Source of the DNA: an uncultured Serinicoccus sp. | Lineage (GTDB): Bacteria > Actinomycetota > Actinomycetes > Actinomycetales > Dermatophilaceae | DNA length: 64,000 bases | Reading direction: 5' to 3' | Assembly (NCBI RefSeq): GCF_947487915.1 | Contig: NZ_CANKYH010000011.1 | Location: 9,919 to 73,918 of the forward strand | Shown: positions 35,200-47,985 of the stretch, in pieces | Numbering within the stretch: the stretch's first letter is position 1 | How the letters are laid out: the number at the start of each line of letters is the position of its first letter | Notes under the pieces: model-generated | Database searches by the model: none | What the model was told of the DNA's origin: nothing | Seen by the model: the letters and a program-made list of their open reading frames with translations, nothing else | Translations under genes and position numbers: made by a program

Positions 35200-36477
35200 T
35201 CAGAAACCGGTGGCCGACGGGCGGGGGTAGAACCTCGCGAGCTTCTTGGCGTGGTTGAGCCGGTTGGCCATGACGTAGCCCCGACGACGCCAGTTGCCGC
35301 GTTCGTAGAGCAACGGGTGGACGATCCCCCGTCGGGCCGCGCGCAGGACGCGCCGTCGCAGGGCGCCGTCCCGGACGTAGTAGGGCAGGACGGCGGGGCT
35401 GACGATGCTGTAGAGCACCTCCCGGGTGCCACGGACCGGCTCGCGCTCGACCCCCCGCACCAGGTCGTCCACCATCGCCCCGGCGAGGTCGGCGCCGGCG
35501 GCGGTGGCGTAGAAGCTGTTGCGGCCCATCCGGGGGTTGACCTCCATGTAGTAGATCGTCCCGGTCCGCGGGTCGCGCTTGGCGTCGATGTTGGCGAAGC
35601 CCCAGTAGTCGACCGCGCCGAGGATGCGCTCGGCCGCGTCCATGAGCTCGGGCATGGGCGTGGTGATCATGGCGATCGGGTTGCCGATCGTGGTCGGGTC
35701 GTGCTCGCCCAGCAGGACCTGCGCGGTGGCGACCGCGGTCAGCCGACCGGTGCGGTCGACATACCCCACGATGGAGAGCTGGTGGGTGTCGTCGCCGGGG
35801 ATGTGCTCCTGGACGAGGAAGTCCTGGCGCACGCCGCCGGACACCAGCACCTTGACCAGCTCCTGCCAATCCTGCGGGCTCTGCAGGAACCACACCTTCT
35901 GCGCTCCGGGGAACTTGAGGTTCTCGAAGTGCGCGCTGTTGGCCGGCTTGGCCACGACGGGGTAGGTGATCTCGATCGGCTCCGGGGTCCACCCCGGCTG
36001 GTCGGCGTCGCCGAAGTGCACGACCGTCGTGCGGGGGGTCGGCAGGCCCAGCCGCTCGCAGATCTGGCCGAACTGGTGCTTGTCCGCGATCTGTTCCAGC
36101 GTCTCCGGCGACATCCGCGGGAACGCGAAGGAGGCAGAGAGCTCCTCGGCGTGCTGCGCGATGAGGTCGGTGTGCGAGTCGGAGTTGCAGCCCAGCACGA
36201 GCGTGACGTCGGGGTCGCGCTCCTTGGCGGTCCTCCCCTCGGCGAGGAGCGTCGCGAGGAGCTGGGCGCGGCCGGTGTCGTGGCCCGCCTCGACGGGCCG
36301 CAGGATGCGCGAGTGCGCGATCGCGCCGGTCTGTCCGCGGGAGACGAGGGTCGTCTCGACGCCGTAGCTCTCGTGCAGCGCGCGGGCCAGGCCGTAGGTC
36401 CCCGGGTCGGTGCCGAGGAAGACCGGTCGGAAGGCGACGTCTGGGGCAGGCGAGGGCACAGGGGCGACCGAGGGCAT
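35200..36477 (-). CDS. ATP-grasp carboxylate-amine ligase (D-aspartate ligase Aslfm/YxbA-like)
   Basis: DKHQF, YPVVAKPANS, LVQEHIPGDD, GFANIDAKRDPR, YMEVNPRMGR; TAGCAT-N7-ATG. Confidence 0.85.
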   Translation of the reverse strand: MPSVAPVPSPAPDVAFRPVFLGTDPGTYGLARALHESYGVETTLVSRGQTGAIAHSRILRPVEAGHDTGRAQLLATLLAEGRTAKERDPDVTLVLGCNSDSHTDLIAQHAEELSASFAFPRMSPETLEQIADKHQFGQICERLGLPTPRTTVVHFGDADQPGWTPEPIEITYPVVAKPANSAHFENLKFPGAQKVWFLQSPQDWQELVKVLVSGGVRQDFLVQEHIPGDDTHQLSIVGYVDRTGRLTAVATAQVLLGEHDPTTIGNPIAMITTPMPELMDAAERILGAVDYWGFANIDAKRDPRTGTIYYMEVNPRMGRNSFYATAAGADLAGAMVDDLVRGVEREPVRGTREVLYSIVSPAVLPYYVRDGALRRRVLRAARRGIVHPLLYERGNWRRRGYVMANRLNHAKKLARFYPRPSATGF

Positions 36478-36527
36478 ACCGCGAATGCTACGTCACGGAC
36501 CCTCGGCCGCCGGGCCGGCGAGACCGC

Positions 36528-37985
36528 TCAGCCGACCCCGTCGACGCGCCCGTAGCCGGACACCCCGCTGAAGATCACGCGGTACTGCGTGGGCACTCCG
36601 GGCCGACCGGTGTCGTACATCATGCCGTCGCCGGCGTAGATGCCCACGTGGTAGGCCGGGGAGCCGTGGAAGACCAGGTCACCGGGCTGCGGGTTGCTCA
36701 CCGGGGTGGTGGCCGCCTGTTGCATCGCCGCTGTGCGCGGGAGGGTCAGACCCACCTCGGCGAAGACGTACTTCGTGTACCCGGAGCAGTCGAAGCCCTC
36801 CTGCGGGCTGTTGCCGCCCCACTTGTAGGGCGTCCCGAGGTACTTCGCCGCGGTGTCGAGGATCAGCTGCCGGGTGGCGGTGGGCGCCGGATCCGGAGCC
36901 GGGGCGGGCGCGGGGGCCGGCGTACTGCCGGAACCGGGGTCGCTGGCGGTGAGGACCGAGGAGGCCATGTACTGCGACCCGGCCATCTTCAGCCAGCCGT
37001 TGCTCGTGAGTGTGCCGGTGACCTTCGTCCCCCGGGCCTTGCTCCCGACGACGGAGTATGACGTGGACGGCCCGGAACGCACGTTGGCGAGGGAGGGGGT
37101 GACCCAGCGGGTCACCTCGCTCGGCGAGGGGTCCGGCTGCTCGCCACCGCCACCGCCCCCACCGGGGTTGGTCCCGGTGAGGATGGTGCCGGAGATGAAC
37201 CGGCCGCCGCTGATCTCGAGCCAGCCGTTGCTGGTCCAGGTGCCCTGCACCTTGGTGCCCTTGCGCATCGTCGTGACGACCGAGTGGCCCAGACCCGGAC
37301 CGGAGCGGACGTTGCCGATCGAGGCCTCCATCCACTGGGTGACCTCCTGGGCACCGCCACCGCCACCGCCACCGCCGCCACCGCCGCCGGGGTCGGTGCT
37401 GGTGAGGATGGTGCCGGAGACGAACTTGCCGCTGCTGATCTTGAGCCAGCCGTTGTTGGTCCAGGTGCCTTGCACCTTGGTGCCCTTGCGCATCGTCGTG
37501 ACGACCGGGTGACCCAGGCCCGGGCCGGAGCGGATGTTGCCGATCGAGGCGTCCATCCAGCGCGTGACCTCCTGGGTGCCACCGCCGCCACCGCCGCCCT
37601 CGGAGCCGACCCGGGTGAGGTTCCAGGCGGCGACGAAGCGGTTCTCCCCGATCTTCAGCCAGTTGTTGGAGGTCAGGGTCCCGGTGAGCTGCTTGCCCCG
37701 GGCGTAACCGCCGACGACGCCGTAGGAGGTCGACGGGCCGCTGCGGACGTTGACGCCCGCGGAGGCGCTCACCTCCATGGTGACCGTGCTCGTCGGCGCC
37801 GGGGTCGGCAGGATCCGGGGCTGGGCCACCGGGGTGGTGGGTGCGTTCGGCAGCAGGGGCTGCTGCGGCAGCTGTGGGGTGCTCGCGGGCGCGGCCTGCA
37901 CGGCCGGAGCGAGAGTGACGACGGGGGCGGCCGCCGCGGTGACGGCGATCATGGTGCGAGACAGGCGCCGGGTGCTCAGGGTCAT
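36528..37985 (-). CDS. Secreted NlpC/P60 peptidoglycan endopeptidase with four SH3b domains
   Basis: Signal peptide; four NVR/NIRSGP repeats; GTPYKWGG, FDCSG (Cys), LPRTA, HVGIY (His). Confidence 0.93.
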   Translation of the reverse strand: MTLSTRRLSRTMIAVTAAAAPVVTLAPAVQAAPASTPQLPQQPLLPNAPTTPVAQPRILPTPAPTSTVTMEVSASAGVNVRSGPSTSYGVVGGYARGKQLTGTLTSNNWLKIGENRFVAAWNLTRVGSEGGGGGGGTQEVTRWMDASIGNIRSGPGLGHPVVTTMRKGTKVQGTWTNNGWLKISSGKFVSGTILTSTDPGGGGGGGGGGGGAQEVTQWMEASIGNVRSGPGLGHSVVTTMRKGTKVQGTWTSNGWLEISGGRFISGTILTGTNPGGGGGGGEQPDPSPSEVTRWVTPSLANVRSGPSTSYSVVGSKARGTKVTGTLTSNGWLKMAGSQYMASSVLTASDPGSGSTPAPAPAPAPDPAPTATRQLILDTAAKYLGTPYKWGGNSPQEGFDCSGYTKYVFAEVGLTLPRTAAMQQAATTPVSNPQPGDLVFHGSPAYHVGIYAGDGMMYDTGRPGVPTQYRVIFSGVSGYGRVDGVG

Positions 37986-38156
37986 GGATGTTCCGTACGT
38001 GTGGTGGGACAGGCCGTGGTGTCCGGGTCGCCGGACGGGTGCTTCGGGACGACCCGCGGGCGGGCCAGGAGCAATCAAACCCACCCGCGCGAGCCCGTGC
38101 AACCCCCACCCCTACCCGGCGAGTGCATTTCTCGGGGGCACCACAAGCGTGTAATT

Positions 38157-38172
38157 CGTGATGTTCGTCACA
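38157..38172. promoter_or_regulatory. Putative CRP/GlxR site upstream of the NlpC/P60 gene
   Basis: CGTGA-TGTTCG-TCACA, 9/10 match to TGTGA-N6-TCACA, in an AT-richer intergenic region. Confidence 0.6.
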
Positions 38173-38326
38173 CGCTCTCAGGGTTTTCGCAGGTCAGGCC
38201 GGATATCACATCCATGTAGTTCTCTGACCTGCAGTTTTCTCGATTTTCACACGTCTCACGGCTGTCTCGGAGGCCACGTGACGGCTGTGACTGAGGCGTT
38301 GCCGAGTGGCGACTGTGGGAGCACAA

Positions 38327-38362
38327 AGGGCGGGGAACGGCATCCCTGCCGTTCCCCGCCCT
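38327..38362 (-). terminator. Terminator hairpin after clpC
   Basis: AGGGCGGGGAACGGCA-TCCC-TGCCGTTCCCCGCCCT 16-bp perfect stem, 20 bp past stop. Confidence 0.85.
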
Positions 38363-38382
38363 CTGTCGCGTGCGGGAGCGCC

Positions 38383-40908
38383 TCAGCCGGCCTGCTCCTC
38401 CACCGGCACCGTGTCGGGCACCTCTGCGGGCTTCTCCTGGCCGCGGAAGGTGAAGACCTTGTCGCGGTTCTTGTCGTTGCCCACGGGGTCCTCGACGTCG
38501 ACGATCACGATCTGACCGGTGCCGATCTCGCCGAAGAGGATCTTCTCCGAGAGCTGGTCCTCGACCTCGCGCTGGATCGCCCGGCGCAACGGCCGTGCAC
38601 CCAGCACCGGGTCGTAGCCGCGCTTGGCGAGCAGTTCCTTGGCGGACGAGGTCAGCTCGATGGCCATGTCCTTGTCCTTGAGCCGCTCGTCGAGGCGGGC
38701 GATCATCAGGTCGACGATCGCGACGATCTCCTCCTGGCTGAGCTGCGGGAAGACGATGGTGTCGTCCACCCGGTTGAGGAACTCGGGACGGAAGTGCTGC
38801 TTGAGCTCGTCCGTGACCTTGTTCTTCATCCGCTCGTAGGAGCTCTGGGTGTCCGGCCCGGCGGAGAAGCCGAGCGAGACGCCCTTGGCGATGTCGCGGG
38901 TGCCGAGGTTCGTCGTCATGATGATGACGGTGTTCTTGAAGTCGACCACCCGGCCCTGGGAGTCGGTCAGACGACCGTCCTCCAGGATCTGCAGCAGGCT
39001 GTTGAAGATGTCCGGGTGGGCCTTCTCGATCTCGTCGAAGAGGACGACCGAGAACGGCTTGCGCCGCACCTTCTCGGTGAGCTGGCCACCCTCTTCATAC
39101 CCGACGTAGCCAGGGGGCGAACCGAACATCCGCGAGACGGTGTGCTTCTCGGAGTACTCCGACATGTCCAGCGTGATGAGGCTGTCCTCATCACCGAAGA
39201 GGAACTCGGCCAGCGCCTTGGCCAGCTCGGTCTTGCCGACCCCCGTGGGCCCGGCGAAGATGAACGAGCCACCGGGACGACGCGGGTCCTTCAGGCCGGC
39301 CCTCGTGCGCCGGATCGCCTGGGACAGGCCCTTGATCGCGTCGTCCATGCCGATGATCCGCTTGTGCAGCTCCTGCTCCATGTTGAGCAGGCGCGAGGAC
39401 TCCTCCTCGCTCAGCTTGAAGACCGGGATACCGGTGGCAGCGGCGAGGACCTCGGCGACCAGCTCCTCGTCGACCTCGGCGACGACGTCCATGTCACCGT
39501 TCTTCCACTCCTTCTCCCGCTCGGCGCGCGCCTGCGTGAGCTTGTGCTCCTCGTCGCGCAGCCGGGCCGCCTTCTCGAAGTCCTGGCCGTCGATGGCCGA
39601 CTCCTTCTCGCGCTTGGCGTGCGCGATCTTGTCGTCGAACTCGCGCAGGTCCGGCGGCGCGGTCATCCGGCGGATCCGCAACCGCGCCCCGGCCTCGTCG
39701 ATCAGGTCGATCGCCTTGTCCGGCAGGAAGCGGTCGTTGATGTAGCGGTCGGCCATCGTGGCGGCCCCCACGAGGGCGCCGTCGGTGATGGTCACCCGGT
39801 GGTGTGCCTCGTAGCGGTCGCGCAGCCCCTTGAGGATCTCGATGGCGTGCTTGAGCGTCGGCTCGGCGACCTGGATGGGCTGGAAGCGGCGCTCGAGAGC
39901 GGCGTCCTTCTCGATGTGCTTGCGGTACTCGTCCAGCGTCGTGGCGCCGATGGTCTGCAGCTCGCCACGGGCCAGCATGGGCTTGAGGATGCTGGCGGCG
40001 TCGATGGCTCCCTCGGCGGCACCCGCCCCGACGAGGGTGTGGATCTCGTCGATGAACAGGATGATGTCGCCGCGGGTGCGGATCTCCTTGAGGACCTTCT
40101 TGAGCCGCTCCTCGAAGTCTCCGCGGTAGCGCGAGCCCGCGACCAGCGCGCCGAGGTCGAGGGTGTAGAGCTGCTTCTCCTTGAGCGTCTCCGGCACGTC
40201 GCCGCGGACGATGTCCTGGGCCAGGCCCTCGACGACGGCGGTCTTGCCGACGCCGGGCTCGCCGATGAGGACCGGGTTGTTCTTGGTCCGGCGGGAGAGG
40301 ACCTGCATGACCCGCTCGATCTCGGTCTCCCGGCCGATGACCGGGTCGAGCTTGCCCTCCCGCGCGGCCTGGGTGAGGTTGCGGCCGAACTGGTCGAGCA
40401 CCAGGGAGCCGGACTGCTGGCCCTCCTGCTGGCTCCCGGCGCCGACGCCCGCCGTGGCGGACTCCTTGCCCTGGTAGCCGGAGAGCAGGGTGATGACCTG
40501 CTGACGGACCCGGTTCAGGTCGGCGCCCAGCTTGACCAGCACCTGGGCGGCGACGCCCTCGCCCTCGCGGATGAGGCCGAGCAGCAGGTGCTCGGTACCG
40601 ATGTAGTTGTGCCCCAGCTGCAGCCCCTCGCGGAGCGAGAGCTCCAGGACCTTCTTGGCGCGGGGCGTGAACGGGATGTGGCCGGTGGGGCTCTGCTGGC
40701 CCTGGCCGATGATCTCCTGCACCTGCTGGCGCACGGCGTCCAGCGAGATGTCCAGCGACTCCAGCGCCTTGGCGGCTACGCCCTCACCCTCGTGGATCAG
40801 GCCCAGCAGCAGGTGCTCGGTGCCGATGTAGTTGTGGTTGAGCATGCGCGCCTCTTCCTGCGCGAGCACCACCACACGTCGAGCCCGGTCGGTGAACCGT
40901 TCGAACAT
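38383..40908 (-). CDS. clpC: ATP-dependent Clp protease ATP-binding subunit ClpC1
   Basis: [29 protein letters not shown] and GPTGVGKT Walker A motifs. Confidence 0.98.
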
Positions 40909-41043
40909 GCTCTTCTCCTCCACTGTGGGCTACCACCCACTGTACGTGCGTCTGGTCGGTGTCAACGTCCTCGTCCACCACCGATGTTCCGTGTTCGCCC
41001 CCGGCGCAATGGCCCGGGGTGCGCCCCTCTTCAGGTGCCCGAC

Positions 41044-41123
41044 GACGGGCACGACGCGGCATACCGGGCGTGACATGCACGACGGGAGCCCGTGCCGCCC
41101 GTCCGACGGCACGCGGGTATGCC
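41044..41123. repeat. Left copy of palindromic direct repeat flanking the DUF559 gene
   Basis: GACGGGCACGACGCGGCATACCGGGCG...GAGCCCGTGCCGCCCGTCCGACGGCACGCGGGTATGCC; abuts the gene stop codon. Confidence 0.85.
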
Positions 41124-42035
41124 TCAGCGCAGCCGCCCCGGCATGCGCGGCGGGGCGGGTACGGGGTGGCCGTCCCGGGCGCGGACCCACGAGCGGATCG
41201 CCCACCGGACGAAGTCGGGCTGCAGCATGACGTCCTCCCAGGAGAAGCGCAGCACCGTCCAGCCGAACACGACCATCTCGGTGTAGCGGCGGACGTCCTT
41301 GCGGAACCCCCTCCTCGTGGCGTGGAACTCGTGGCTGTCCGCCTCGATGACCAGCCGGCGCGAGGTGTCGACCAGGTCGGCCTGCGCCCACAGTCCGTGC
41401 GCGACCACCTGGTGCTGGCAGACGACGTCGAGTCCTTCCTCCAGGCAGATCGCTCGCAAGACCGACTCGAAGGGGTTGGCGGCACGTCCGTCGGCGAGCA
41501 GGGCCACCCGCCGCAGCTGCCGTGTGCCTGCACCCCTGGCAACGCGCGCGGCCTCGAGCAGCCGGCTGCGGTCGACCTGCCCGGACCGCAGCGCCGAGTC
41601 AGCCACCGCGAGCGCCTCGTCGAAGGGCAGGTCCCGCCCGCAGTCGAGGGCGGTCCGCAGGGGCGTCGTCACCCCGTCCTCCGCGTCGGCGTCTCCCAGG
41701 TGACGCCACCGCACCAGGGCCTCACGCTGGTCCTCCGCGGAGACGTTGCGGTTGCGCGGCACGACCACCTCGGGCCACTCCGGGTCCTGCTTGACCGGCC
41801 ATCCGCGCTGCACGCACGCGGAGCGGTGGGAGAGCACGGCGCTCATCCGGTGGGCGATCGCGGCGTGGGTCTGCAGGGAGGACAGCCGGTAGCGGCCGCG
41901 CCGGGCCCGCACCAGCCGTCCCTCCTGCACGGCAGCCCCGACGTCCCGCGCCCGCGCGCCCGCGCCGCGCAGCTGTCGTGTCGTGGCGCAGCCCCCGAGC
42001 TGGGCGATGACGGCGACGGGGTCGGGTCCGGACAT
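41124..42035 (-). CDS. AbiEi-like HTH plus DUF559 (Vsr-like) endonuclease-domain protein
   Basis: N-terminal GGCATTRQL...GRLVRARRGRY; middle TTPLRTALD, GRAANPFESVLR; C-terminal ADLVD...LVIEADSHEFH, GWTVLRFSWEDV; CAGGCT-N6-ATG. Confidence 0.88.
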   Translation of the reverse strand: MSGPDPVAVIAQLGGCATTRQLRGAGARARDVGAAVQEGRLVRARRGRYRLSSLQTHAAIAHRMSAVLSHRSACVQRGWPVKQDPEWPEVVVPRNRNVSAEDQREALVRWRHLGDADAEDGVTTPLRTALDCGRDLPFDEALAVADSALRSGQVDRSRLLEAARVARGAGTRQLRRVALLADGRAANPFESVLRAICLEEGLDVVCQHQVVAHGLWAQADLVDTSRRLVIEADSHEFHATRRGFRKDVRRYTEMVVFGWTVLRFSWEDVMLQPDFVRWAIRSWVRARDGHPVPAPPRMPGRLR

Positions 42036-42161
42036 ACCTGCAGCCTGCCGCGCCAGGCCACCCGTCCGTCGAGACTGTCCACAGGCCGCTGCGACCCTCC
42101 GCTCCGGGCGGTGCCCGCCCCGGGGAGCGCACCGCGACCGGCGACGTGGGTGGTGGCGCGA

Positions 42162-42262
42162 GACGGGCACGACGCGTGCATACCGGGCGCATCGTGCGGG
42201 ACGTGAGCCCGTGCCGCCCGTCCGACGGGCCGTGCCGCCCGTCCGGCGGCACGAGGTATGCC
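42162..42262. repeat. Right copy of palindromic direct repeat flanking the DUF559 gene
   Basis: GACGGGCACGACGCGTGCATACCGGGCG...GAGCCCGTGCCGCCCGTCCGACGGGCCGTGCCGCCCGTCCGGCGGCACGAGGTATGCC, with an internal ~20-bp duplication. Confidence 0.85.
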
Positions 42263-42273
42263 TGTGCCGCCGG

Positions 42274-43248
42274 TCAGCCCGCCTTCTTGGACCTCGTGCC
42301 CGACGACTTCGTGCCCGACGACTTCGTGGACGCCTTCTTCGAGGTCGACGAGGACGTGCCTGCCGAGGACTTCTTCGTCGAGGAGGACGAGCCTCCGGAG
42401 GACTTCTTCGCCGAGGACGTGCCCCCCGACCCGCTGCCACCCCCGGAGCTCTCGCCCCGGCCCGTCTTGGCCCGGTCCACCGAGCGCTGCAGCGCGGCCA
42501 GCAGGTCGACCACCTCCCCGCTGTCGGCCTCGTCCTCCTCGTCCGGGCTCTCGGTGACCTCTCCGCCGCTGATCTTCTTCTCCACCAGCGCGTCGACGGC
42601 CTCCTTGAAGTCGTCGACGTGCCCCTCAGGCTCGAAGTCGCCGGACATCGAGTCCACGAGCATCCGCGCCATCGCGACCTCGTCCTTCTTGGGCTCGCTC
42701 ACCTCGTCGAGGTGGTCGAGCTGCTCGGAGGTCCGGATCTCGTCGGGCCAGAGCAGGGTCTGCAGGACGATCGCGGCGTCGTCCTCCCGCACCCGCAGCA
42801 CCGCCATCGTCATCCGGCTGCGGACCGAGACGGTGACCACGGCGACGCGGTCGGACTCGCGCAGCGCCTCGCGCAGCAGCCCGTAGGCCTTGGCCCCCAT
42901 GGCGTCGGGCTCGAGGTAGTAGGCCTTGTCGTAGAGGATCGGGTCGATCTGCTCGCGCGGCACGAACTGCTCGACCGATATCTCCTTGCTGCTGCGGTTG
43001 GGCAGGCTCGCGAGGTCCTCGTCGGTGAGCACGACCGTCTTGCCGTCGTCGGTCTCGTAGGCCTTGGCGATGTCCTTGTAGGCCACCTCCTCGCCGTCGG
43101 CCTGCGCCACCCGCTTGTAGCGGATGCGGCTGCCGTCGCTGCGGCGGACCTGGTGGAAGCTCAGGTCGTGGTTCTCGGTGGCGGAGTACAACCGCACGGG
43201 TACGTTGACCAGCCCGAACGAGACGGCACCCTTCCAGATCGCTCTCAC
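42274..43248 (-). CDS. ku: NHEJ DNA end-binding protein Ku
   Basis: RAIWKGAVSFGLVNVPVRLYSATE, YDKAYYLEP, VVDLLAALQRSV; S/K-rich tail. Confidence 0.97.
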   Translation of the reverse strand: MRAIWKGAVSFGLVNVPVRLYSATENHDLSFHQVRRSDGSRIRYKRVAQADGEEVAYKDIAKAYETDDGKTVVLTDEDLASLPNRSSKEISVEQFVPREQIDPILYDKAYYLEPDAMGAKAYGLLREALRESDRVAVVTVSVRSRMTMAVLRVREDDAAIVLQTLLWPDEIRTSEQLDHLDEVSEPKKDEVAMARMLVDSMSGDFEPEGHVDDFKEAVDALVEKKISGGEVTESPDEEDEADSGEVVDLLAALQRSVDRAKTGRGESSGGGSGSGGTSSAKKSSGGSSSSTKKSSAGTSSSTSKKASTKSSGTKSSGTRSKKAG

Positions 43249-43266
43249 GCACCCCAGGATGGACCC

Positions 43267-44262
43267 ATGCGCCCCATGCTCGCCACCCCGGGAGGGGTCC
43301 CGGCCCTCCCCCCGACGGGCCCGGGGTGGGTGCACGAGATCAAGTGGGACGGGATCCGGCTGCTGGCCGACGTCACCGGGGGCCGGCTGCGGCTGCTGAC
43401 CCGGGGCGAGCGCGACATCGCGCACGCCTTCCCCGAGCTCGCCGGTCTGGGTGGGGTCGCGGAGGACCTGCTGCTGGACGGCGAGGCGGTCTGCCTGGTC
43501 GAGGGCCGTCCCTCCTTCAGCCACGTCGTCGAGCGGGTCCACGTGGGCCGAGGTGCCGCCGCGGAGCGCCTGGCCGCCGCCCGCCCCGCCACCTACGTCG
43601 CCTTCGACCTGCTGCGTCTGGACGGGCTCGACCTCACCGCACTCCCCTGGTCGGCGCGCCGGGAGGCGCTGGAGCAGATCGTGGAGGACGTGCCGGGCAT
43701 CCAGCTCTCCCCCGTCTACGACGACGGCGCGATGCTGCTCGCCGCCACCCGCGAGCAGCACCTCGAGGGGGTGGTGAGCAAGCGTCGGGACGCGGCATAC
43801 CAACCGGGGAGGCGCAGCGCCGTCTGGGTGAAGTTCCCGCACCGCGAACGGGTGTCGGTGGTCGTCGGCGGGTGGCGGCCCGAGACCGACCGCCCGGGCC
43901 GCATCGGCGCGGTGCACGTCGGCCTGCCGCTGCGCGGCCCCGACGGTATGCCGCAGCTCGCCGCGGACGGGTCGTTGCGGCTGCGGTACCGCGGCCGGGT
44001 CGGCAGCGGGCTGGCCGGGCGCGCCGGTGAGCACCTCCAGCGGCTCCTGGCCGGGGTGCCTGCCGGGGACTACCCCTTCGACGCCCCGATCCCGCCCGTC
44101 GAGGCGCGCGGCTCCACCTGGCTGCGACCACAGGTGGTCGTCGACGTCGCCGCGCTGGGCGCCGACGGCACGGCCGGCCGGCTGCGACAGCCGTCGTTCC
44201 AGGGCGTCCGCCCCGATCTGGCAGCGGCCGACCTGGCCGGGCCCGCCGAGGAGGCCCCATGA
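43267..44262 (+). CDS. ATP-dependent DNA ligase (LigD ligase domain)
   Basis: MRPMLAT, HEIKWDG (KxDG), LDGE, YVAFD, EGVVSK, YRGRVGSG. Confidence 0.92.
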   Translation: MRPMLATPGGVPALPPTGPGWVHEIKWDGIRLLADVTGGRLRLLTRGERDIAHAFPELAGLGGVAEDLLLDGEAVCLVEGRPSFSHVVERVHVGRGAAAERLAAARPATYVAFDLLRLDGLDLTALPWSARREALEQIVEDVPGIQLSPVYDDGAMLLAATREQHLEGVVSKRRDAAYQPGRRSAVWVKFPHRERVSVVVGGWRPETDRPGRIGAVHVGLPLRGPDGMPQLAADGSLRLRYRGRVGSGLAGRAGEHLQRLLAGVPAGDYPFDAPIPPVEARGSTWLRPQVVVDVAALGADGTAGRLRQPSFQGVRPDLAAADLAGPAEEAP

Positions 44263-45107
44263 GCAGCCAGCAGGTGAGCGTGGCCGGGCGCACCCTGCGG
44301 GTGAGCAACCTGGACAAGGTCCTCTACCCCGCCACCGGGACCACCAAGGGGGAGGTGCTCACCTACTACGTCACCCACGCCGAGCAGATCCTGCCTGAGC
44401 TCGCGGACCGGCCGGTGACCCGCATCCGGTGGCCGGAGGGGGTGACCGGGGCGCACTTCTTCGAGAAGAACCTGCCCTCCGGGGCGCCGGACTGGCTGCC
44501 CCGGGTGACCCTGCCGACACCCGGGTCCTCCCGGGGCCACACCCACCTCACCTTCCCCCTGGTGACCGATCTGGCCGTGCTGGTCTACCTCGTCAACCTC
44601 GGCAGCCTGGAGCTGCACGTCCCCCAGTGGCGGGTCGACGACGACGGTGCCGCGCTGCCGCCGGACCGGCTCGTGGTCGACCTGGACCCCGGGCCCGGCG
44701 CCGGCCTGCAGGAGTGCTCCCGGGTGGCCCTCCTCGTCCGGGAGCGCCTGGAGGCCGTGGGCCTGGAGTCGCGGCCGGTGACGAGCGGGTCCAAAGGCAT
44801 GCAGCTGTATGCCGGGCTCGAGGGCACCCGTGGTGCCGACGAGGTGAGCGCCGTCACCAAGGCCCTCGCCGAAAAGCTAGCCGAGGACCATCCGGACCTC
44901 GTGACCGCACGCATGAGCAAATCTCTGCGCTCACACAAGGTCTTTCTGGACTGGAGCCAGAACAATGGCGCCAAGACCACCATCTGCCCGTGGTCGCTGC
45001 GGGCCCGGGAACGACCCCAGGTGGCCCTGCCCCGGGAGTGGGGCGAGGTCGAGGCCGCGGCCTCGGGCGACGCCGATCTCGAGCAGATCACGATGGACCG
45101 GGTCTGA
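44259..45107 (+). CDS. LigD primase-polymerase domain protein
   Basis: SNLDKVLYP, FFEKN, DRLVVDLDPG, TSGSKGMQLY, FLDWSQN; ATGA overlap. Confidence 0.93.
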   Translation: MSSQQVSVAGRTLRVSNLDKVLYPATGTTKGEVLTYYVTHAEQILPELADRPVTRIRWPEGVTGAHFFEKNLPSGAPDWLPRVTLPTPGSSRGHTHLTFPLVTDLAVLVYLVNLGSLELHVPQWRVDDDGAALPPDRLVVDLDPGPGAGLQECSRVALLVRERLEAVGLESRPVTSGSKGMQLYAGLEGTRGADEVSAVTKALAEKLAEDHPDLVTARMSKSLRSHKVFLDWSQNNGAKTTICPWSLRARERPQVALPREWGEVEAAASGDADLEQITMDRV

Positions 45108-45128
45108 GGGCGCAGGGAGTGGGCAGCG

Positions 45129-45170
45129 AGAAAGGGCTGACACCCCCGCACGGGGATGCCAGCCCTTTCT
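45129..45170. terminator. Bidirectional terminator between ligD-pol and lsr2
   Basis: AGAAAGGGCTG...CAGCCCTTTCT inverted repeat with inner CCCC/GGGG stem, between convergent genes. Confidence 0.8.
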
Positions 45171-45186
45171 GCAGGCCTCGAAGAGG

Positions 45187-45522
45187 TCAGTGGGCCGCCG
45201 CGTAGGCGTCCTGGAGCTCCTGCGAGACGCGGCCACGGGCGCTGACCTTGTAGCCGTTCTCCCGGCCCCACTCACGGACCTTCGCGAGCTCGTCGCTGCG
45301 ACCTCCGGCCGCCGCGGTGGTGCCGCGCCGCCGGGTCTGGCGACGACCGCCGGCCCGACGGGCCTGACCGATCCACGTCGCGAAGTCCTCACGTAGCTTC
45401 GCGGCGTTCTCGTCGCTGAGGTCGATCTCGTAGTGAACCCCGTCCAAGGCGAACTCCACGGTCTGGTTCGCCTCCCCACCACTGAGGTCATCCACCAGGA
45501 TGACCTGCACTCGCTGTGCCAT
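45187..45522 (-). CDS. lsr2: Nucleoid-associated protein Lsr2
   Basis: MAQRVQVILVDDL, YEIDLS, VREWGRENG, SARGRV. Confidence 0.97.
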   Translation of the reverse strand: MAQRVQVILVDDLSGGEANQTVEFALDGVHYEIDLSDENAAKLREDFATWIGQARRAGGRRQTRRRGTTAAAGGRSDELAKVREWGRENGYKVSARGRVSQELQDAYAAAH

Positions 45523-45667
45523 TTCTTCTCCTTTGTGCCGAGCATGCGCCGCTACAGGTTGCGCCGCAGGAGAAGACTAGCGCTATTTCCTCGCCGTGCG
45601 AAAGTCAGCACATTTCATTCGGGAATTCTTGAGAAATCCTGGCAATGCGGTCGCCCGGAGAGGATGC

Positions 45668-45907
45668 TCAGGAGCGGTCGGCAGGGTCGGCGCCCTGCCC
45701 GGGGTCGGTCACCGCACGACCCGGCCCACCTCCGTCGCCCGGGTCCACAGCACGGTCCGCCTCGCGGTCCGCCGCCCGCTGGGCCGCGCGTTCCCGACGG
45801 TCGCCCTCCACCATGTGCTTCATCACGACGTAGAAGAGGTAGAGCAGCCCGGCCGAGGGAAGCAGCGCGGCCAGGATCATCCATCCCTCGTGCAGGATCT
45901 CGCCCAT
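45668..45907 (-). CDS. Small membrane-anchored hypothetical protein coupled to lysS
   Basis: [42 protein letters not shown]; start overlaps lysS stop. Confidence 0.7.
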   Translation of the reverse strand: MGEILHEGWMILAALLPSAGLLYLFYVVMKHMVEGDRRERAAQRAADREADRAVDPGDGGGPGRAVTDPGQGADPADRS

Positions 45908-47409
45908 CAGGCCTCCGGCTTGAGGAAGGGGAAGAGGATGGTCTCGCGCACACCGCTGCCGGTGAGCAGCATGAGCACCCGGTCGAGCCCCATACCGAGG
46001 CCCCCCATCGGCGGGGCGGCGTACTCCAGCGCCCGCAGGAAGTCCTCGTCCAGCTGCATGGCGTCGGCGTCCCCACCGGCCGCCAGGAGGGACTGCTCGG
46101 TGAGCCGGGCCCGCTGGATCTCGGGGTCGACCAGCTCGGAGAAGGCGGTGCCCCGCTCGATCCCGCCGATGATGAGGTCCCAGGCCTCGACCAGCCCGGG
46201 CCGGTCGCGGTGCGGACGGGCCAGCGGCTGGGCGATCGCCGGGTAGTCGCAGACGAAGGTCGGCTGGACGAGGGTCGGTTCGACGACGTCGCCGAAGATC
46301 TCCAGGGCGATCTTGTCCGCGCCCCAGCCGGGCTGGACCGGCACCTCGTGGACGGCCGCCAGCCGCCGCAGGTCGTCGACCGGCGTCTCGACGTCGACCC
46401 GCTCCCCCATCGCCGCGGACAGACCGTCGTAGAAGGACAGCCACGCCCACTCGGCGTCCAGGTCGATGGTCCCGGCCGCGCTCTCCACCTGCCGGCTCCC
46501 GATCTCGTCCGCGGCCGCCAGGATCATCCGCCGCATGAGGTCGGCCATGGTGAACTGGTCGCCGTAGGACTGGTAGCACTCCAGCATGGTGAACTCGGGC
46601 GAGTGGGTGGAGTCGATGCCCTCGTTGCGGAAGATGCGCCCGATCTCGTAGACCCGCTCCACCCCGCCGACCACGGCCCGCTTGAGGTGCAGCTCCAGCG
46701 CGATGCGCAACGTCATCGGCAGGTCGAAGGCGTTGAGGTGGGTGTTGAAGGGGCGGGCGTTGGCACCGCCGTGCAGGGCCTGCAGGACCGGCGTCTCGAC
46801 CTCGACGTAGCCGTCGCCCTCGAGCACCCGGCGCACCGCGCGGGTCAGGGCCGCCCGCTTCAGCACCATCTGGCGCGCGTCCTCGCGCACCAGCAGGTCG
46901 ACGTACCGCTGGCGCACGCGCTGCTCCTCGGAGAGCTCCTTGTGCAGCACCGGCAGCGGCCGCAGGGCCTTGGACGCCATGCGCCAGGAGGTGGCCATGA
47001 CCGACAGCTCACCGCGACGCGAGCTGATGACGCGGCCCTCGACGAAGACGTGGTCGCCCAGGTCCACCCACGCCTTCCACCGGTCCAGGGCCTCCTGGCC
47101 GACCTCGGCGAGGGAGAGCATGGCCTGCAGGCGGGTGCCGTCCCCGGACTGCAGCGAGGCGAAGCAGAGCTTCCCGGTGTTGCGGACGAACATCACCCGG
47201 CCGGCGACACCGACCACGTCGTCGGTCTCCTCACCGGTCTCCAGGTGCACCCAGCCCTCGCGGACCTGGGCGAGGGTGTGCGTGACCGGCACCTCGACGG
47301 GGTAGGGGTCCACCCCGGCGTCGAGCATGGCCTGACGCTTGCCCTGGCGGACCGCGATCTGCTCGGGCAGGTCGGTCTCGGGCACGCTCGGTCGGGTCGG
47401 CTCGCTCAC
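45907..47409 (-). CDS. lysS: Lysine-tRNA ligase
   Basis: [41 protein letters not shown]; TACCCT-N6-GTG. Confidence 0.98.
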
Positions 47410-47481
47410 CCTTCCAGGGTAGTCGGCGGCGGGCGTGCCCCCCGCACCGCGTCGAGCCGCGACCGCGGTGACGGCCAGCGG

Positions 47482-47985
47482 TCAGACGGGCAGCGTGGGC
47501 GCGGTCCGTGACCGTTCCAGGTCCAGGAGCACCTGCTTGCGCTCGACCCCGCCGCCGTAGCCGGTGATCGAGCCGTCCGCCCCCACCACCCGGTGGCAGG
47601 GCACGACGATGGACAGCGGGTTGCGGCCGTTGGCGAGCCCGACGGCGCGGGAGGCACCGGGGGCCCCCAGAGCGCGGGCGAGCTCGCCGTAGGACCAGGT
47701 CCGGCCGTAGGGGATGGCCCGCAGCTGGGCCCAGACCCGCTGCTGGAAGTCGGTGCCCGGCGCGTCCGTCGGCAGGTCGAACCCGGTGCGGTCACCCGCG
47801 AAGTACTCCTGCAGCTGACGGGCGGTCTCCCGCAGCACCGGCGGCGCCAGGGCCCCGTCGACCGCCTCGCCCAGGTCGTCGGGCGCGTGCCGGTGCTCGA
47901 CGAAGAACACCCCGGTGAGGTGCTCGCCGTCGCTGCGCAGGCGGAGGGGTCCGACCGGGGAGTCGGTCGTGAGGTGGACGGTCAT
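47482..47985 (-). CDS. ogt: Methylated-DNA-protein-cysteine methyltransferase
   Basis: FQQRVW, RAVGLANGRNP, VVPCHRV active site. Confidence 0.96.
   Translation of the reverse strand: MTVHLTTDSPVGPLRLRSDGEHLTGVFFVEHRHAPDDLGEAVDGALAPPVLRETARQLQEYFAGDRTGFDLPTDAPGTDFQQRVWAQLRAIPYGRTWSYGELARALGAPGASRAVGLANGRNPLSIVVPCHRVVGADGSITGYGGGVERKQVLLDLERSRTAPTLPV

What the first reader, a model, noticed from the sequence alone, without database searches (positions are those of the whole stretch)
41044..42262. AbiEi-HTH/DUF559 endonuclease gene between two palindromic direct repeats that carry the iterated motif: candidate mobile or repeat-generating element
Seen: the gene is bracketed by about 80-bp (41044-41123) and 100-bp (42162-42262) copies of one sequence in direct orientation. 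Each copy has internal inverted arms (GACGGGCACG / CGTGCCGCCCGTC, and GCATACC...GGTATGCC). The left copy abuts the stop codon exactly, and the gene's own ATG lies in GGTATGTC, a near-copy of the motif. Established: DUF559 is a Vsr-like nuclease fold; Vsr nicks at G:T mismatches; REP elements flank and are mobilised by their cognate RAYT nuclease; lsr2 and clpC are normally close neighbours in actinobacteria, so this is an insertion position. Inference: a REP/RAYT-like arrangement using a Vsr-like nuclease rather than an HUH transposase. The cassette may move or excise through the direct repeats, and its nuclease could be linked to the genome-wide GGCATAC excess.
Basis: partly seen in the sequence, partly recalled or inferred. 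Interest (0 to 1): 0.78.

Follow-up and report, generated by a model that had tools for sequence, protein, structure and literature searches.

The report
Nuclease gene bracketed by its palindromes
A dispensable gene for a DNA-binding nuclease sits between two copies of its own hairpin-forming repeat, as do most of its 12 relatives in this genome, which points to an undescribed selfish gene cassette; the proposed link to the genome-wide GGCATACC motif does not hold.

Summary
An 80-nt copy (41044-41123) and a 101-nt copy (42162-42262) of one palindromic sequence bracket a 303-aa gene (41124-42035, minus strand). These are the only two copies in the 3.7-Mb genome.

The protein is a whole AbiEi-like module fused to a Vsr/I-Bth0305I-type nuclease. 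It is under purifying selection (dN/dS 0.2-0.3).

The layout is a family trait. Nine of the 13 paralogues here are flanked by their own locus-specific palindromes, against about 7 of 2,988 other genes (p = 3e-12). Eight or nine also carry a DnaA-box-like TTGTCCACA upstream.

Across Serinicoccus species the clpC-Ku site is filled, decayed, reduced to one repeat, or free of gene and repeat. Two other cassette loci behave likewise, and their gene-free sites lack the repeat. So the palindromes belong to the inserted DNA.

Relatives 51-61% identical, at other loci, carry palindromes whose arms are variants of one core (AACGGGCAC, ACGTGCAC and others).

The motif link fails. CGGCATACC is genus-wide (about 190-1,320 per genome) whether or not the gene is present, is equally dense in coding DNA, and occurs in only two of nine cassette repeats.

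Mobility and cleavage remain inferences. I found no published description.

The parts
41044..41123 (.). Downstream (left) copy of the cognate palindromic repeat, 80 nt. It ends exactly at the stop codon of the nuclease gene and lies upstream of the clpC leader.
   Evidence: The orthologous copy is present in G043, G071 and G047, and as the only copy in G054.
41044..41103 (.). Palindrome A of the left copy. The arms are GACGGGCACG (41044-41053) and CGTGCCGCCCGTC (41091-41103). This is the inferred recognition element of the winged-helix domain.
   Evidence: G047 carries GACGTGCAC/GTGCACGTC in both of its copies. Arms of relatives are variants of the same core.
41058..41123 (.). Inverted pair of the genus-wide motif inside the left copy: GGCATACC (41058-41065) and GGTATGCC (41116-41123). 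This second helix is interleaved with palindrome A.
   Evidence: The pair is conserved in orthologous copies but absent from 7 of 9 cassette repeats in this genome.
41124..42035 (-). Cassette gene, 303 aa. Residues about 1-195 form an AbiEi-like winged helix plus AbiEi C-terminal domain. Residues about 195-290 form a DUF559/Vsr/I-Bth0305I-type nuclease domain. D220, E231, H238, D247 and R250 are invariant in 53 homologues.
   Evidence: dN/dS is 0.21-0.31.
42042..42047 (-). Conserved CAGGCT, about 7 nt upstream of the ATG. It is a candidate -10 element of a leaderless or short-leader transcript (inference).
   Evidence: The sequence is conserved in G000, G012, G041, G042 and G047. The simple sigma-70 scan finds nothing.
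42076..42083 (-). DnaA-box-like element. It reads TGTCCACA on the + strand and CTGTGGACAG in gene sense, 48 nt upstream of the ATG.
   Evidence: Nine of the genome's 41 exact 8-mers lie upstream of the 13 family genes (p about 2e-13). Two more lie beside dnaA.
42162..42262 (.). Upstream (right) copy of the repeat, 101 nt, with an internal 21-nt duplication of the 3' arm (about 42209-42229 and 42230-42250). It lies 127 nt upstream of the ATG and 11 nt downstream of the Ku stop codon.
   Evidence: The orthologous copy is present in G020, G047 and G071 (decayed), internally deleted in G043, and half-length in G022.
38383..40923 (-). clpC, the left neighbour. It is not part of the cassette.
42274..43248 (-). 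Ku, the right neighbour. It is not part of the cassette.

Best explanation
The locus is one copy of a large, apparently undescribed actinobacterial family of single-gene cassettes.

Each cassette has the same order of parts:
- a cognate palindrome;
- a DnaA-box-like TTGTCCACA and a promoter;
- a gene for a fusion of a whole AbiEi-type DNA-binding module to a Vsr/I-Bth0305I-type nuclease;
- a second direct copy of the same palindrome at or just after the stop codon.

Shown:
- The anatomy recurs in 9 of 13 paralogues here and in relatives elsewhere.
- Both palindromes are absent from the repeat-free sites at three loci, so they belong to the inserted DNA and are not duplications of a pre-existing target.
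- The unit is dispensable. It is gained, lost or decayed as a block between species.
- The intact genes are under purifying selection, with the nuclease core residues conserved.
- Palindrome arms vary together with protein divergence around one core.

Inferred:
- The winged helix binds the palindrome arms, as AbiEi binds inverted repeats in its own promoter.
- This binding gives autoregulation and tethers the nuclease domain to the cassette ends.
- Cutting or nicking there promotes copying, exchange or loss of the unit by host recombination. That would make it selfish, in the manner of homing-endonuclease genes or REP/RAYT pairs.

The two GGCATACC copies inside this repeat are a feature of this lineage, overlaid by a genus-wide motif. 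They are not the basis of the system.
For: - Repeats: real, and unique to the locus.
- Genome-wide flank screen: 13 of 3,001 genes have matching flanks and 6 of them are family members (hypergeometric p = 2.9e-12). A family HMM finds 13 members, 9 with flanking palindromic direct repeats. The upstream copy ends about 45-130 nt before the start. The downstream copy begins at -12 to +40 from the stop.
- DnaA-box-like 8-mer: 9 of the genome's 41 copies lie upstream of family genes (Poisson p about 2e-13). Two copies lie beside dnaA.
- Fold: pLDDT 91.7. The N-terminal 195 aa match AbiEi (6y8q) and Rv2827c (1zel). The C-terminal 97 aa match I-Bth0305I (3r3p, TM 0.78) and Vsr. PADLOC AbiEi models cover aa 10-170.
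- Conserved residues: D220, E231, H238, D247 and R250 are invariant in 53 homologues. D220 is kept in 13 of 13 paralogues and E231 in 12 of 13.
- Selection: dN/dS 0.21-0.31.
- clpC-Ku site: filled in G000, G043, G047 and G071; remnant in G020; single repeat in G054; half repeat in G022; no repeat and no gene in G050, G005 and G003.
- C6 and C10 loci: the empty sites in G020, G047 and G050 carry unrelated sequence or none of the cassette palindrome.
- Arm co-variation: relatives 51-61% identical, at other loci, have palindromes with arms AACGGGCAC, ACGTGCAC, AACGTGCGC, AACATGCAC or GGCGTGCAC. G057 has AACATGCGAT upstream and AACCTGCGAT downstream, a compensatory difference between its two copies.
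- Other genera: 19 of 56 loci show flanking direct repeats.
Against: - No binding, cleavage, excision or transposition was observed. All mobility is inferred from species comparisons.
- The 13 paralogues are only 26-56% identical. There is no sign of recent transposition in this genome.
- Four of 13 paralogues, and 37 of 56 loci in other genera, show no flanking repeat by BLAST.
- Covariation within the focal repeat rests on one base pair in one lineage and is not significant against shuffles.
- The empty sites come from the more distant species, where intergenic DNA may have diverged beyond recognition.
- The G054 single copy can be read either as a deletion product or as a pre-insertion state.
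- In G043 the stop codon is lost and the frame runs on for 75 codons. In G071, G020 and G022 the gene is broken or gone. So selection for the gene is not uniform.
Confidence: 0.6

Rival explanations
1. This is an ordinary host gene with regulatory palindromes, not a mobile or selfish unit. The upstream palindrome is the autoregulatory operator of an AbiEi-like repressor. The downstream copy is a terminator or second operator, for example for looping or insulation. The nuclease serves repair or defence. Presence and absence between species reflect ordinary gene loss.
For: - AbiEi proteins autoregulate through inverted repeats in their promoters (established knowledge), and the N-terminal 195 aa match AbiEi.
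- The right copy lies 11 nt after the Ku stop and the left copy directly after the cassette stop. Both are terminator positions.
- Gene-less copies of other paralogues' palindromes sit between convergent stop codons.
- The paralogues are old (26-56% identity).
- The orthologue is vertically consistent with Ku divergence.
Against: - This reading does not explain why both palindromes are missing, together with the gene, from the repeat-free sites at three loci.
- It does not explain why the two copies in each genome share lineage-specific changes.
- It does not explain why subfamily members sit at different loci in different species.
- It does not explain why the cassette gene at the C5 locus is only 72-83% identical while its flanks are 93-95% identical.
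- No canonical terminator is predicted. Some palindromes are perfect and loop-less (C12:81158), which suits protein binding better than termination.
Confidence: 0.25
2. The flanking repeats come from the target. The gene inserts into a pre-existing hairpin, either a terminator or a scattered solo palindrome. That hairpin is then duplicated by staggered cuts and fill-in, or by recombination of a gene-plus-hairpin circle with a resident solo copy.
For: - Repeat sequences are locus-specific.
- Solo palindromes of four types exist at terminator positions.
- G054 has one copy at the clpC-Ku site.
- At the C10 locus the repeat unit starts with CTGA, which is the stop codon both of the upstream neighbour and of the cassette gene.
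Against: - The repeat-free sites at the clpC, C6 and C10 loci (G050, G005, G003; G020, G047; G050, G020) carry no copy of the respective palindrome.
- clpC and the ancestral lipoprotein gene are divergent, so no terminator is expected there.
- The focal repeat has no solo copy in any of 60 genomes of the genus outside this locus.
- Arms of palindromes track protein relatedness across loci. This is expected if the palindromes travel with the gene.
Confidence: 0.1
3. The cassette nuclease generates or maintains the genome-wide GGCATACC excess, for example by Vsr-like mismatch nicking in GGYATRCC, with the flanking repeats as its REP-like substrates.
For: - Both repeat copies carry an inverted pair of the motif, conserved in orthologous copies.
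- The ATG lies in GGTATGTC, and in a full GGTATGCC in G047 and G020.
- The motif or its 7-mer also occurs in the palindromes of G012, G021a and G021b, and in one other cassette here, C6.
Against: - CGGCATACC counts are about 190-1,320 in all 25 genomes of the genus sampled, and below 50 in 16 other families.
- Genomes without the orthologue (G017 with 1,323 copies, G022 with 994) are among the richest.
- Genomes of other families with 42-45% identical homologues have almost no motif copies.
- Motif density is 0.38 per kb in coding DNA and 0.43 per kb in non-coding DNA.
- Seven of 9 cassette repeats lack the motif.
Confidence: 0.03

Closest known systems
REP/RAYT units (REPtrons, REPINs) of Proteobacteria
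   Same: A single-copy enzyme gene is bracketed by copies of its own lineage-specific palindromic repeat. Different paralogues pair with different repeat families. For some paralogues here (C3, C5, C6 and C10 types), gene-less copies occupy intergenic or terminator positions.
   Different: The enzyme is unrelated: an AbiEi winged helix plus a Vsr-fold PD-(D/E)xK nuclease, not an HUH tyrosine transposase. Copy numbers are tiny, from 0 to 7 solos rather than hundreds. The focal repeat has none. The flanking copies are direct repeats of a whole palindrome. A DnaA-box-like site is part of the unit.
Free-standing and intron-borne homing endonuclease genes, especially the Vsr-like EDxHD enzyme I-Bth0305I (PDB 3r3p)
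   Same: The nuclease domain superposes on the I-Bth0305I catalytic domain (TM 0.78, rmsd 2.7 A, 22% identity). The gene is dispensable and patchily distributed, and decays where it is present.
   Different: There is no intron or intein, and no host gene is interrupted. The putative recognition sites are kept intact on both sides of the gene instead of being destroyed by insertion. The DNA-binding module is AbiEi-like.
AbiEi antitoxin-repressors of type IV AbiE toxin-antitoxin systems (S. agalactiae AbiEi, PDB 6y8q; M. tuberculosis Rv2827c, PDB 1zel)
   Same: Residues about 1-195 have the AbiEi fold and hit PADLOC AbiEi models. Inverted repeats lie upstream of the gene, as in AbiEi operators.
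   Different: No AbiEii nucleotidyltransferase toxin gene is adjacent; the neighbours are clpC and Ku. A nuclease domain is fused instead. A second copy of the palindrome lies downstream of the gene.
IS200/IS605-family elements
   Same: They are small units whose two ends carry similar subterminal hairpins in the same orientation, and they lack long terminal inverted repeats.
   Different: There is no HUH TnpA or TnpB. No target tetranucleotide or circular junction was seen. There is no evidence of recent transposition.

Membership tests
DUF559 / Vsr-like PD-(D/E)xK nuclease superfamily | Sequence match to PF04480 above its gathering score | tested here: met
   27.6 bits against a cut-off of 20.6, aa 219-280. 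PF18741 scores 25.3, below its cut-off of 38.2.
DUF559 / Vsr-like PD-(D/E)xK nuclease superfamily | Vsr-type fold of the C-terminal domain | tested here: met
   The AF2 model has pLDDT 91.7. Foldseek finds 3r3p (TM 0.78, rmsd 2.7 A), 1vsr, 1cw0 and 3hrl.
DUF559 / Vsr-like PD-(D/E)xK nuclease superfamily | Conserved acidic and histidine core residues | tested here: met
   D220, E231, H238, D247 and R250 are invariant in 53 homologues. D220 is kept in 13 of 13 paralogues, E231 in 12 of 13 and D233 in 10 of 13.
DUF559 / Vsr-like PD-(D/E)xK nuclease superfamily | Nuclease or nickase activity | not testable with these tools
   Needs purified protein.
AbiE type IV toxin-antitoxin system (AbiEi antitoxin) | AbiEi winged-helix N-terminal domain plus AbiEi C-terminal domain | tested here: met
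   PADLOC AbiEi models cover aa 10-170 (E = 1e-9). Foldseek finds 6y8q (E = 1.4e-5) and 1zel. Pfam AbiEi_4 scores 24.5 bits, just under its cut-off of 25.
AbiE type IV toxin-antitoxin system (AbiEi antitoxin) | Adjacent AbiEii nucleotidyltransferase toxin gene | tested here: not met
   The neighbours are clpC and Ku. The cassette holds one gene.
REP/RAYT (REPtron) | Enzyme is an HUH (Y1) transposase related to IS200/IS605 TnpA | tested here: not met
   Pfam, PADLOC and fold search give AbiEi plus Vsr-like domains only.
REP/RAYT (REPtron) | Gene flanked by its cognate palindromic repeats | tested here: met
   (9 of 13 paralogues).
REP/RAYT (REPtron) | Many scattered gene-less copies of the same repeat in the genome | tested here: not met
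   The focal repeat has no other copy in this genome, and none outside this locus in 60 genomes of the genus. Other paralogues' palindromes have 1-7 solos.
Homing endonuclease gene | Lies in an intron or intein, or next to a cleavable cognate site that insertion disrupts, with copying into empty alleles | tested here: inconclusive
   There is no intron or intein. Both putative sites are intact. Filled and empty alleles exist between species, but copying was not observed.
Insertion sequence / MITE | Transposase gene, terminal inverted repeats and a short target-site duplication | tested here: not met
   There is no transposase domain. The ends are direct copies of a palindrome. No short duplication is discernible.

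The most novel reading that the evidence does not exclude
The AbiEi-winged-helix/Vsr-fold protein is itself the mobilising enzyme of an unrecognised class of actinobacterial mobile element. It recognises the lineage-specific palindromes at both ends of its own gene and cuts or nicks there, possibly on extruded hairpins and perhaps timed by DnaA through the conserved DnaA box. It thereby drives copying, exchange or excision of the whole cassette, and seeds gene-less palindrome copies at terminator positions. This would be a functional analogue of REP/RAYT or of homing, built on an unrelated enzyme.
Probability: 0.3. Interest if true: 0.85.

Novelty: new variant of a known kind. Interest (0 to 1): 0.6.

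Why it matters
Proteins annotated 'DUF559' or 'AbiEi family antitoxin domain-containing' are very numerous in Actinomycetota. More than 4,000 clusters matched this one query at E = 1e-20 or better. They have no assigned biology.

Three points matter if the reading is right:
- The unit is a fixed package of palindrome, DnaA box, gene and palindrome, gained and lost as a block. That gives the family a testable function and a defined DNA substrate.
- If the nuclease acts on its own palindromes, this is a second, independently evolved enzyme-plus-repeat partnership besides REP/RAYT. It would also be a source of programmable long-site nucleases.
- The Serinicoccus series (intact, read-through, internally deleted, single-repeat, repeat-free) is a ready-made natural experiment for dating and junction analysis.

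The negative result is also useful. It separates this cassette from the striking genus-specific CGGCATACC motif, which needs its own explanation.

Tried and rejected
1. Genome-wide REP element. Rejected: the focal repeat occurs only twice in the genome and only at this locus in the genus.
2. Known RNA family. Rfam finds nothing in 36000-48000.
3. Canonical promoter or intrinsic terminator. The simple scans find none.
4. Covariation support for the two interleaved helices. Only one double change, not significant against shuffles. I therefore call the repeat palindromic and make no claim of a selected RNA structure.
5. Motif as Chi- or KOPS-like. Rejected: strand counts are equal (714 and 755), and neighbouring copies alternate in orientation more often than they agree.
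6. Motif as the terminal repeat of the cassette family. Rejected: 7 of 9 cassette repeats lack it.
7. Solo palindromes as remnants of dead cassettes. Not supported in this genome: none of 17 solos has a DnaA box nearby, and most sit tightly between convergent stop codons. G054 at the C6 locus, however, is such a remnant.
8. A second family gene in the extra 1.1-1.6 kb between two C5-type hairpins in G012 and G050. None found: it is an AraC-type regulator, plus an epoxide-hydrolase fragment in G050.
9. Sequence search of PDB with the protein. No useful hit. The fold search was needed.
10. NCBIfam. No model matched.
11. Read-level evidence for excision or transcription.
12. Literature. 'DUF559' (25 papers) and AbiEi/endonuclease/palindrome searches gave no description of this arrangement. 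The only related item is a table row listing DUF559 proteins as enriched among predicted inversion targets (PMC9881135).
Full report
**1. The observation**

Reading 40700-42600 and running the repeat finder confirm two direct copies of one sequence.
- The left copy is 41044-41123 (80 nt).
- The right copy is 42162-42262 (101 nt).
- They match at 88% over 67 nt and 87% over 45 nt.
- The extra length of the right copy is an internal 21-nt tandem duplication of the 3' arm.

Each copy contains two interleaved inverted pairs. One is GACGGGCACG with CGTGCCGCCCGTC. The other is (G/T)GCATACC with GGTATGCC.

The gene between the copies is 41124-42035 on the minus strand (303 aa).
- The left copy ends one base before its stop codon.
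- Its ATG lies in GGTATGTC.
- Its codon-position GC is typical of the genome's genes.

blastn-short against the whole assembly finds the repeat nowhere else. The assembly is 3.70 Mb, 72.7% G+C, in 65 contigs, and the window is C11:9919-73918. Rfam finds no known RNA in the region.

**2. Context**

- The left neighbour is clpC.
- The right neighbour is Ku, not lsr2.
- Beyond Ku lie a LigD ligase gene, a LigD PrimPol gene, lsr2 (45187-45522) and lysS.

The organism is a Serinicoccus. The GTDB genus also holds Ornithinimicrobium. Named relatives are:
- G043, S. chungangensis;
- G047, S. kebangsaanensis;
- G020, Serinicoccus sp. LYQ92;
- G012, S. hydrothermalis;
- G041, O. avium.

**3. The protein**

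- Pfam gives DUF559 above its threshold, and AbiEi_4 just below its threshold.
- PADLOC AbiEi models cover residues 10-170.
- NCBIfam has no model.
- An AlphaFold2 model built on 53 homologues has mean pLDDT 91.7.
- Foldseek matches residues about 1-195 to the AbiEi antitoxin (6y8q) and to Rv2827c (1zel).
- It matches the last ~97 residues to the catalytic domain of the Vsr-like homing endonuclease I-Bth0305I (3r3p, TM 0.78, rmsd 2.7 A). Vsr itself and NGO0050 also match.
- D220, E231, H238, D247 and R250 are invariant in the 53 homologues.

No AbiEii toxin gene is adjacent. Among the intact orthologues of G000, G043 and G047, dN/dS is 0.21-0.31.

**4. The layout is a family trait**

I made 3,001 crude gene calls from codon-position GC. 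I then compared each gene's left 350-nt flank with its right flank.
- Only 13 genes had matching flanks. Six of those have the same winged-helix plus DUF559-like architecture (hypergeometric p = 2.9e-12).
- An HMM built from those six finds 13 members in the genome. They are 26-56% identical to one another.
- Nine of the 13 are bracketed by direct repeats of a palindrome, and each locus has its own sequence.
- The upstream copy ends about 45-130 nt before the start. The downstream copy begins between -12 and +40 of the stop.
- Only two of the nine, this one and C6:13977, contain GGCATACC.
- Among 56 loci from other genera, 19 show flanking direct repeats at E = 1e-3 or better. This is an undercount, because pairs with compensatory changes escape BLAST (for example G057).

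**5. A DnaA-box-like element is part of the unit**

TGTGGACA/TGTCCACA occurs 41 times in the genome, and 33 of these are intergenic.
- Nine lie within 200 nt upstream of the 13 family genes (Poisson p about 2e-13).
- Two lie on the dnaN side of dnaA, where oriC is expected.
- In this cassette the box is at 42076-42083, 48 nt before the ATG.
- It lies 27-28 nt upstream of a conserved CAGGCT that sits about 7 nt before the ATG. That is too far for a -35 element.
- Twelve of the 56 loci from other genera have the exact 8-mer 24-52 nt before the start.

The box is shared by paralogues whose palindromes differ. It is therefore more likely a host-factor site than the protein's own site (inference).

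**6. Comparative series at the clpC-Ku site**

I fetched the clpC 5' flank from 30 genomes of the genus.

| State | Genomes |
|---|---|
| Repeat, gene, repeat | G000; G047 (intact; ATG in a full GGTATGCC) |
| As above, partly damaged | G043 (stop lost, frame runs on 75 codons; right copy internally deleted); G071 (two internal deletions; right copy decayed) |
| Gene remnant | G020: gene remnant, right repeat, then a lipoprotein gene, then Ku. Only GGTATGC is left of the downstream copy. |
| Half a repeat | G022: half repeat, then the lipoprotein gene |
| One full repeat, no gene | G054. The copy is left-type by sequence and by left flank. It has no lipoprotein gene. |
| Trace only | G012: GAGGTATGCGC beside the Ku stop |
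| No repeat, no gene | G050, G005, G003: just the lipoprotein gene, divergent from clpC. G017 has an unrelated tandem repeat. |

Three points follow.
- The repeat is seen only where the gene is or was.
- The repeat-free sites lie between divergent genes, where no terminator is expected.
- Both copies in one genome share lineage-specific states. G000 has CGTGCCGCCCGTC in both. G047 has GACGTGCAC/GTGCACGTC in both.

**7. Two more loci behave the same way**

C6 cassette:
- It is filled in G043, G022, G071, G012, G017 and partly in G050.
- The sites in G020 and G047 hold unrelated hairpins between the convergent stop codons.
- G054 keeps the upstream palindrome, a TTGTCCACA box and half of the downstream palindrome. 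That is a deletion remnant.

C10 cassette:
- It is filled in six relatives and partly deleted in G017.
- It is absent, without any C10-type palindrome, in G050 and G020.
- There the repeat unit begins with CTGA, which serves as the stop codon both of the upstream neighbour and of the cassette gene.

C5 locus:
- The flanks are 93-95% identical in G054, G017 and G043, but the cassette gene is only 72-83% identical.
- In G012 and G050 an AraC-type gene lies between two copies of the C5-type palindrome. It is missing in G000.

**8. Palindromes track the protein**

Members of the focal subfamily sit at other loci in other species. Their own palindromes have arms that are variants of one core.

| Genome (identity to the focal protein) | Arm |
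|---|---|
| G042 (61%), G073 (58%) | AACGGGCAC (the focal arm is GACGGGCAC) |
| G047, G021a | ACGTGCAC |
| G021b | AACGTGCGC |
| G074 | AACATGCAC |
| G012 | GGCGTGCAC |
| G057 | AACATGCGAT upstream, AACCTGCGAT downstream |

This is what a protein-site partnership predicts. It was not tested with phylogenetic control.

Within the nine copies of the focal repeat, pairing is high: 84.7% of cells pair, against 22-44% when the partners are slid. Only one pair shows a double change, and this is not significant.

**9. Scatter**

- The focal repeat has no gene-less copy in this genome. In 60 genomes of the genus it occurs only at this locus, in G043, G054 and G071, apart from three weak partial matches.
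- Palindromes of the C3, C5, C6 and C10 cassettes have 1-7 gene-less copies. Most sit tightly between convergent stop codons, and none has a DnaA box.
- The C6 type is also scattered in close relatives.

The REP-like aspect is therefore real for some paralogues but weak, and it is absent for this one.

**10. The motif**

- GGCATACC occurs 1,469 times (about 120 expected from base composition). CGGCATACC occurs 1,148 times (44 expected).
- Both strands carry it about equally (714 and 755). Neighbouring copies alternate in orientation slightly more often than not.
- Its density is 0.38 per kb in coding DNA and 0.43 per kb in non-coding DNA.
- All 25 sampled genomes of the genus have about 190-1,320 copies of CGGCATACC. 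All 16 sampled genomes from other families of the order have fewer than 50.
- Counts do not follow the presence of the orthologue: G017 has 1,323 and G022 has 994, and neither has the gene. Genomes of other families that carry 42-45% identical homologues have almost no copies.

The cassette nuclease is therefore not a credible cause of the motif. The motif pair is nonetheless conserved inside orthologous copies of this repeat. The motif, or its 7-mer, also appears in the palindromes of several subfamily members. I take this as the genus-wide pressure acting on these sequences as well. That is unexplained rather than shown.

**11. Interpretation**

The best-supported reading is a single-gene cassette whose two palindromes belong to the unit and are the protein's recognition sites.
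- Shown: the anatomy, its recurrence, the absence of repeats at repeat-free sites, dispensability, purifying selection on intact copies, and arm variation with protein divergence.
- Inferred: binding by the winged helix, autoregulation, cutting at the ends, and any form of mobility.

The paralogues are old, and no event was caught in the act.

The regulatory-only reading remains a serious rival (0.25). Target-derived duplication is less likely (0.1). The motif-generator idea is nearly excluded (0.03).

**12. Novelty**

I found no description of this arrangement in the searchable literature. The nearest item is a table row listing DUF559 proteins as enriched among predicted inversion targets. 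That follows naturally if each flank is a palindrome.

Earlier notes of this scan report the same layout in about 35 other genomes. I reached the family-wide pattern before reading them and treat them as agreement, not as evidence.

Noticed in passing
whole window and genome (for example window 41058-41065, 41116-41123, 42255-42262): CGGCATACC is a genus-specific, hyper-abundant 9-mer. It occurs 1,148 times here (44 expected) and about 190-1,320 times in every Serinicoccus/Ornithinimicrobium genome sampled, but fewer than 50 times in 16 other families of the order. It is equally dense in coding and non-coding DNA and equal on both strands. Some inverted pairs form hairpins after genes. The pattern resembles DNA-uptake sequences more than Chi or REP. 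The cause is unknown.
   Followed up: partly
window 42076-42083; also upstream of 8 other family genes in the genome: The DnaA-box consensus TTGTCCACA(G) is a fixed part of the cassettes, about 17-131 nt before the start. Many of the remaining intergenic copies of the 10-mer CTGTGGACAA/TTGTCCACAG lie elsewhere and were not examined. They might mark undetected relatives or remnants.
   Followed up: partly
window 42274-45522: A non-homologous end-joining block (Ku, LigD ligase, LigD PrimPol) lies between lsr2 and clpC. In most of the genus a small lipoprotein gene also lies between Ku and clpC. That gene is missing here and in G043, G071, G047, G054 and G012.
   Followed up: partly
G000:C11:5880-7481, just left of the window start: Another family member (C11:6243-7253) is flanked on both sides by tandem arrays of a palindromic unit of about 84-93 nt. 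There are three units upstream and at least four partial units downstream.
   Followed up: no
L023 (G017), upstream of clpC: In place of the cassette, G017 has three tandem copies of a ~32-nt unit (CCGACCGGGCGTCGTAGATGGTCGCTCCCAGA) followed by an inverted partial copy.
   Followed up: no
L123 (G012:C1:1794500-1796100) and L124 (G050:C1:237300-239250): An AraC-family regulator gene, plus an epoxide-hydrolase fragment in G050, lies between two copies of the C5-type palindrome next to that cassette. G000 lacks it and keeps one copy. The palindromes may mediate deletion of neighbouring genes.
   Followed up: partly
G000:C2:350078-350150: Five tandem copies of an 18-nt unit, each containing the motif (CCGGTATGCCTGCCGCCG).
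   Followed up: no
G000:C8:29613-30137: A 175-aa gene of unknown family is also flanked by 62-nt direct repeats (85% identity), with an inverted motif pair at C8:30151.
   Followed up: no
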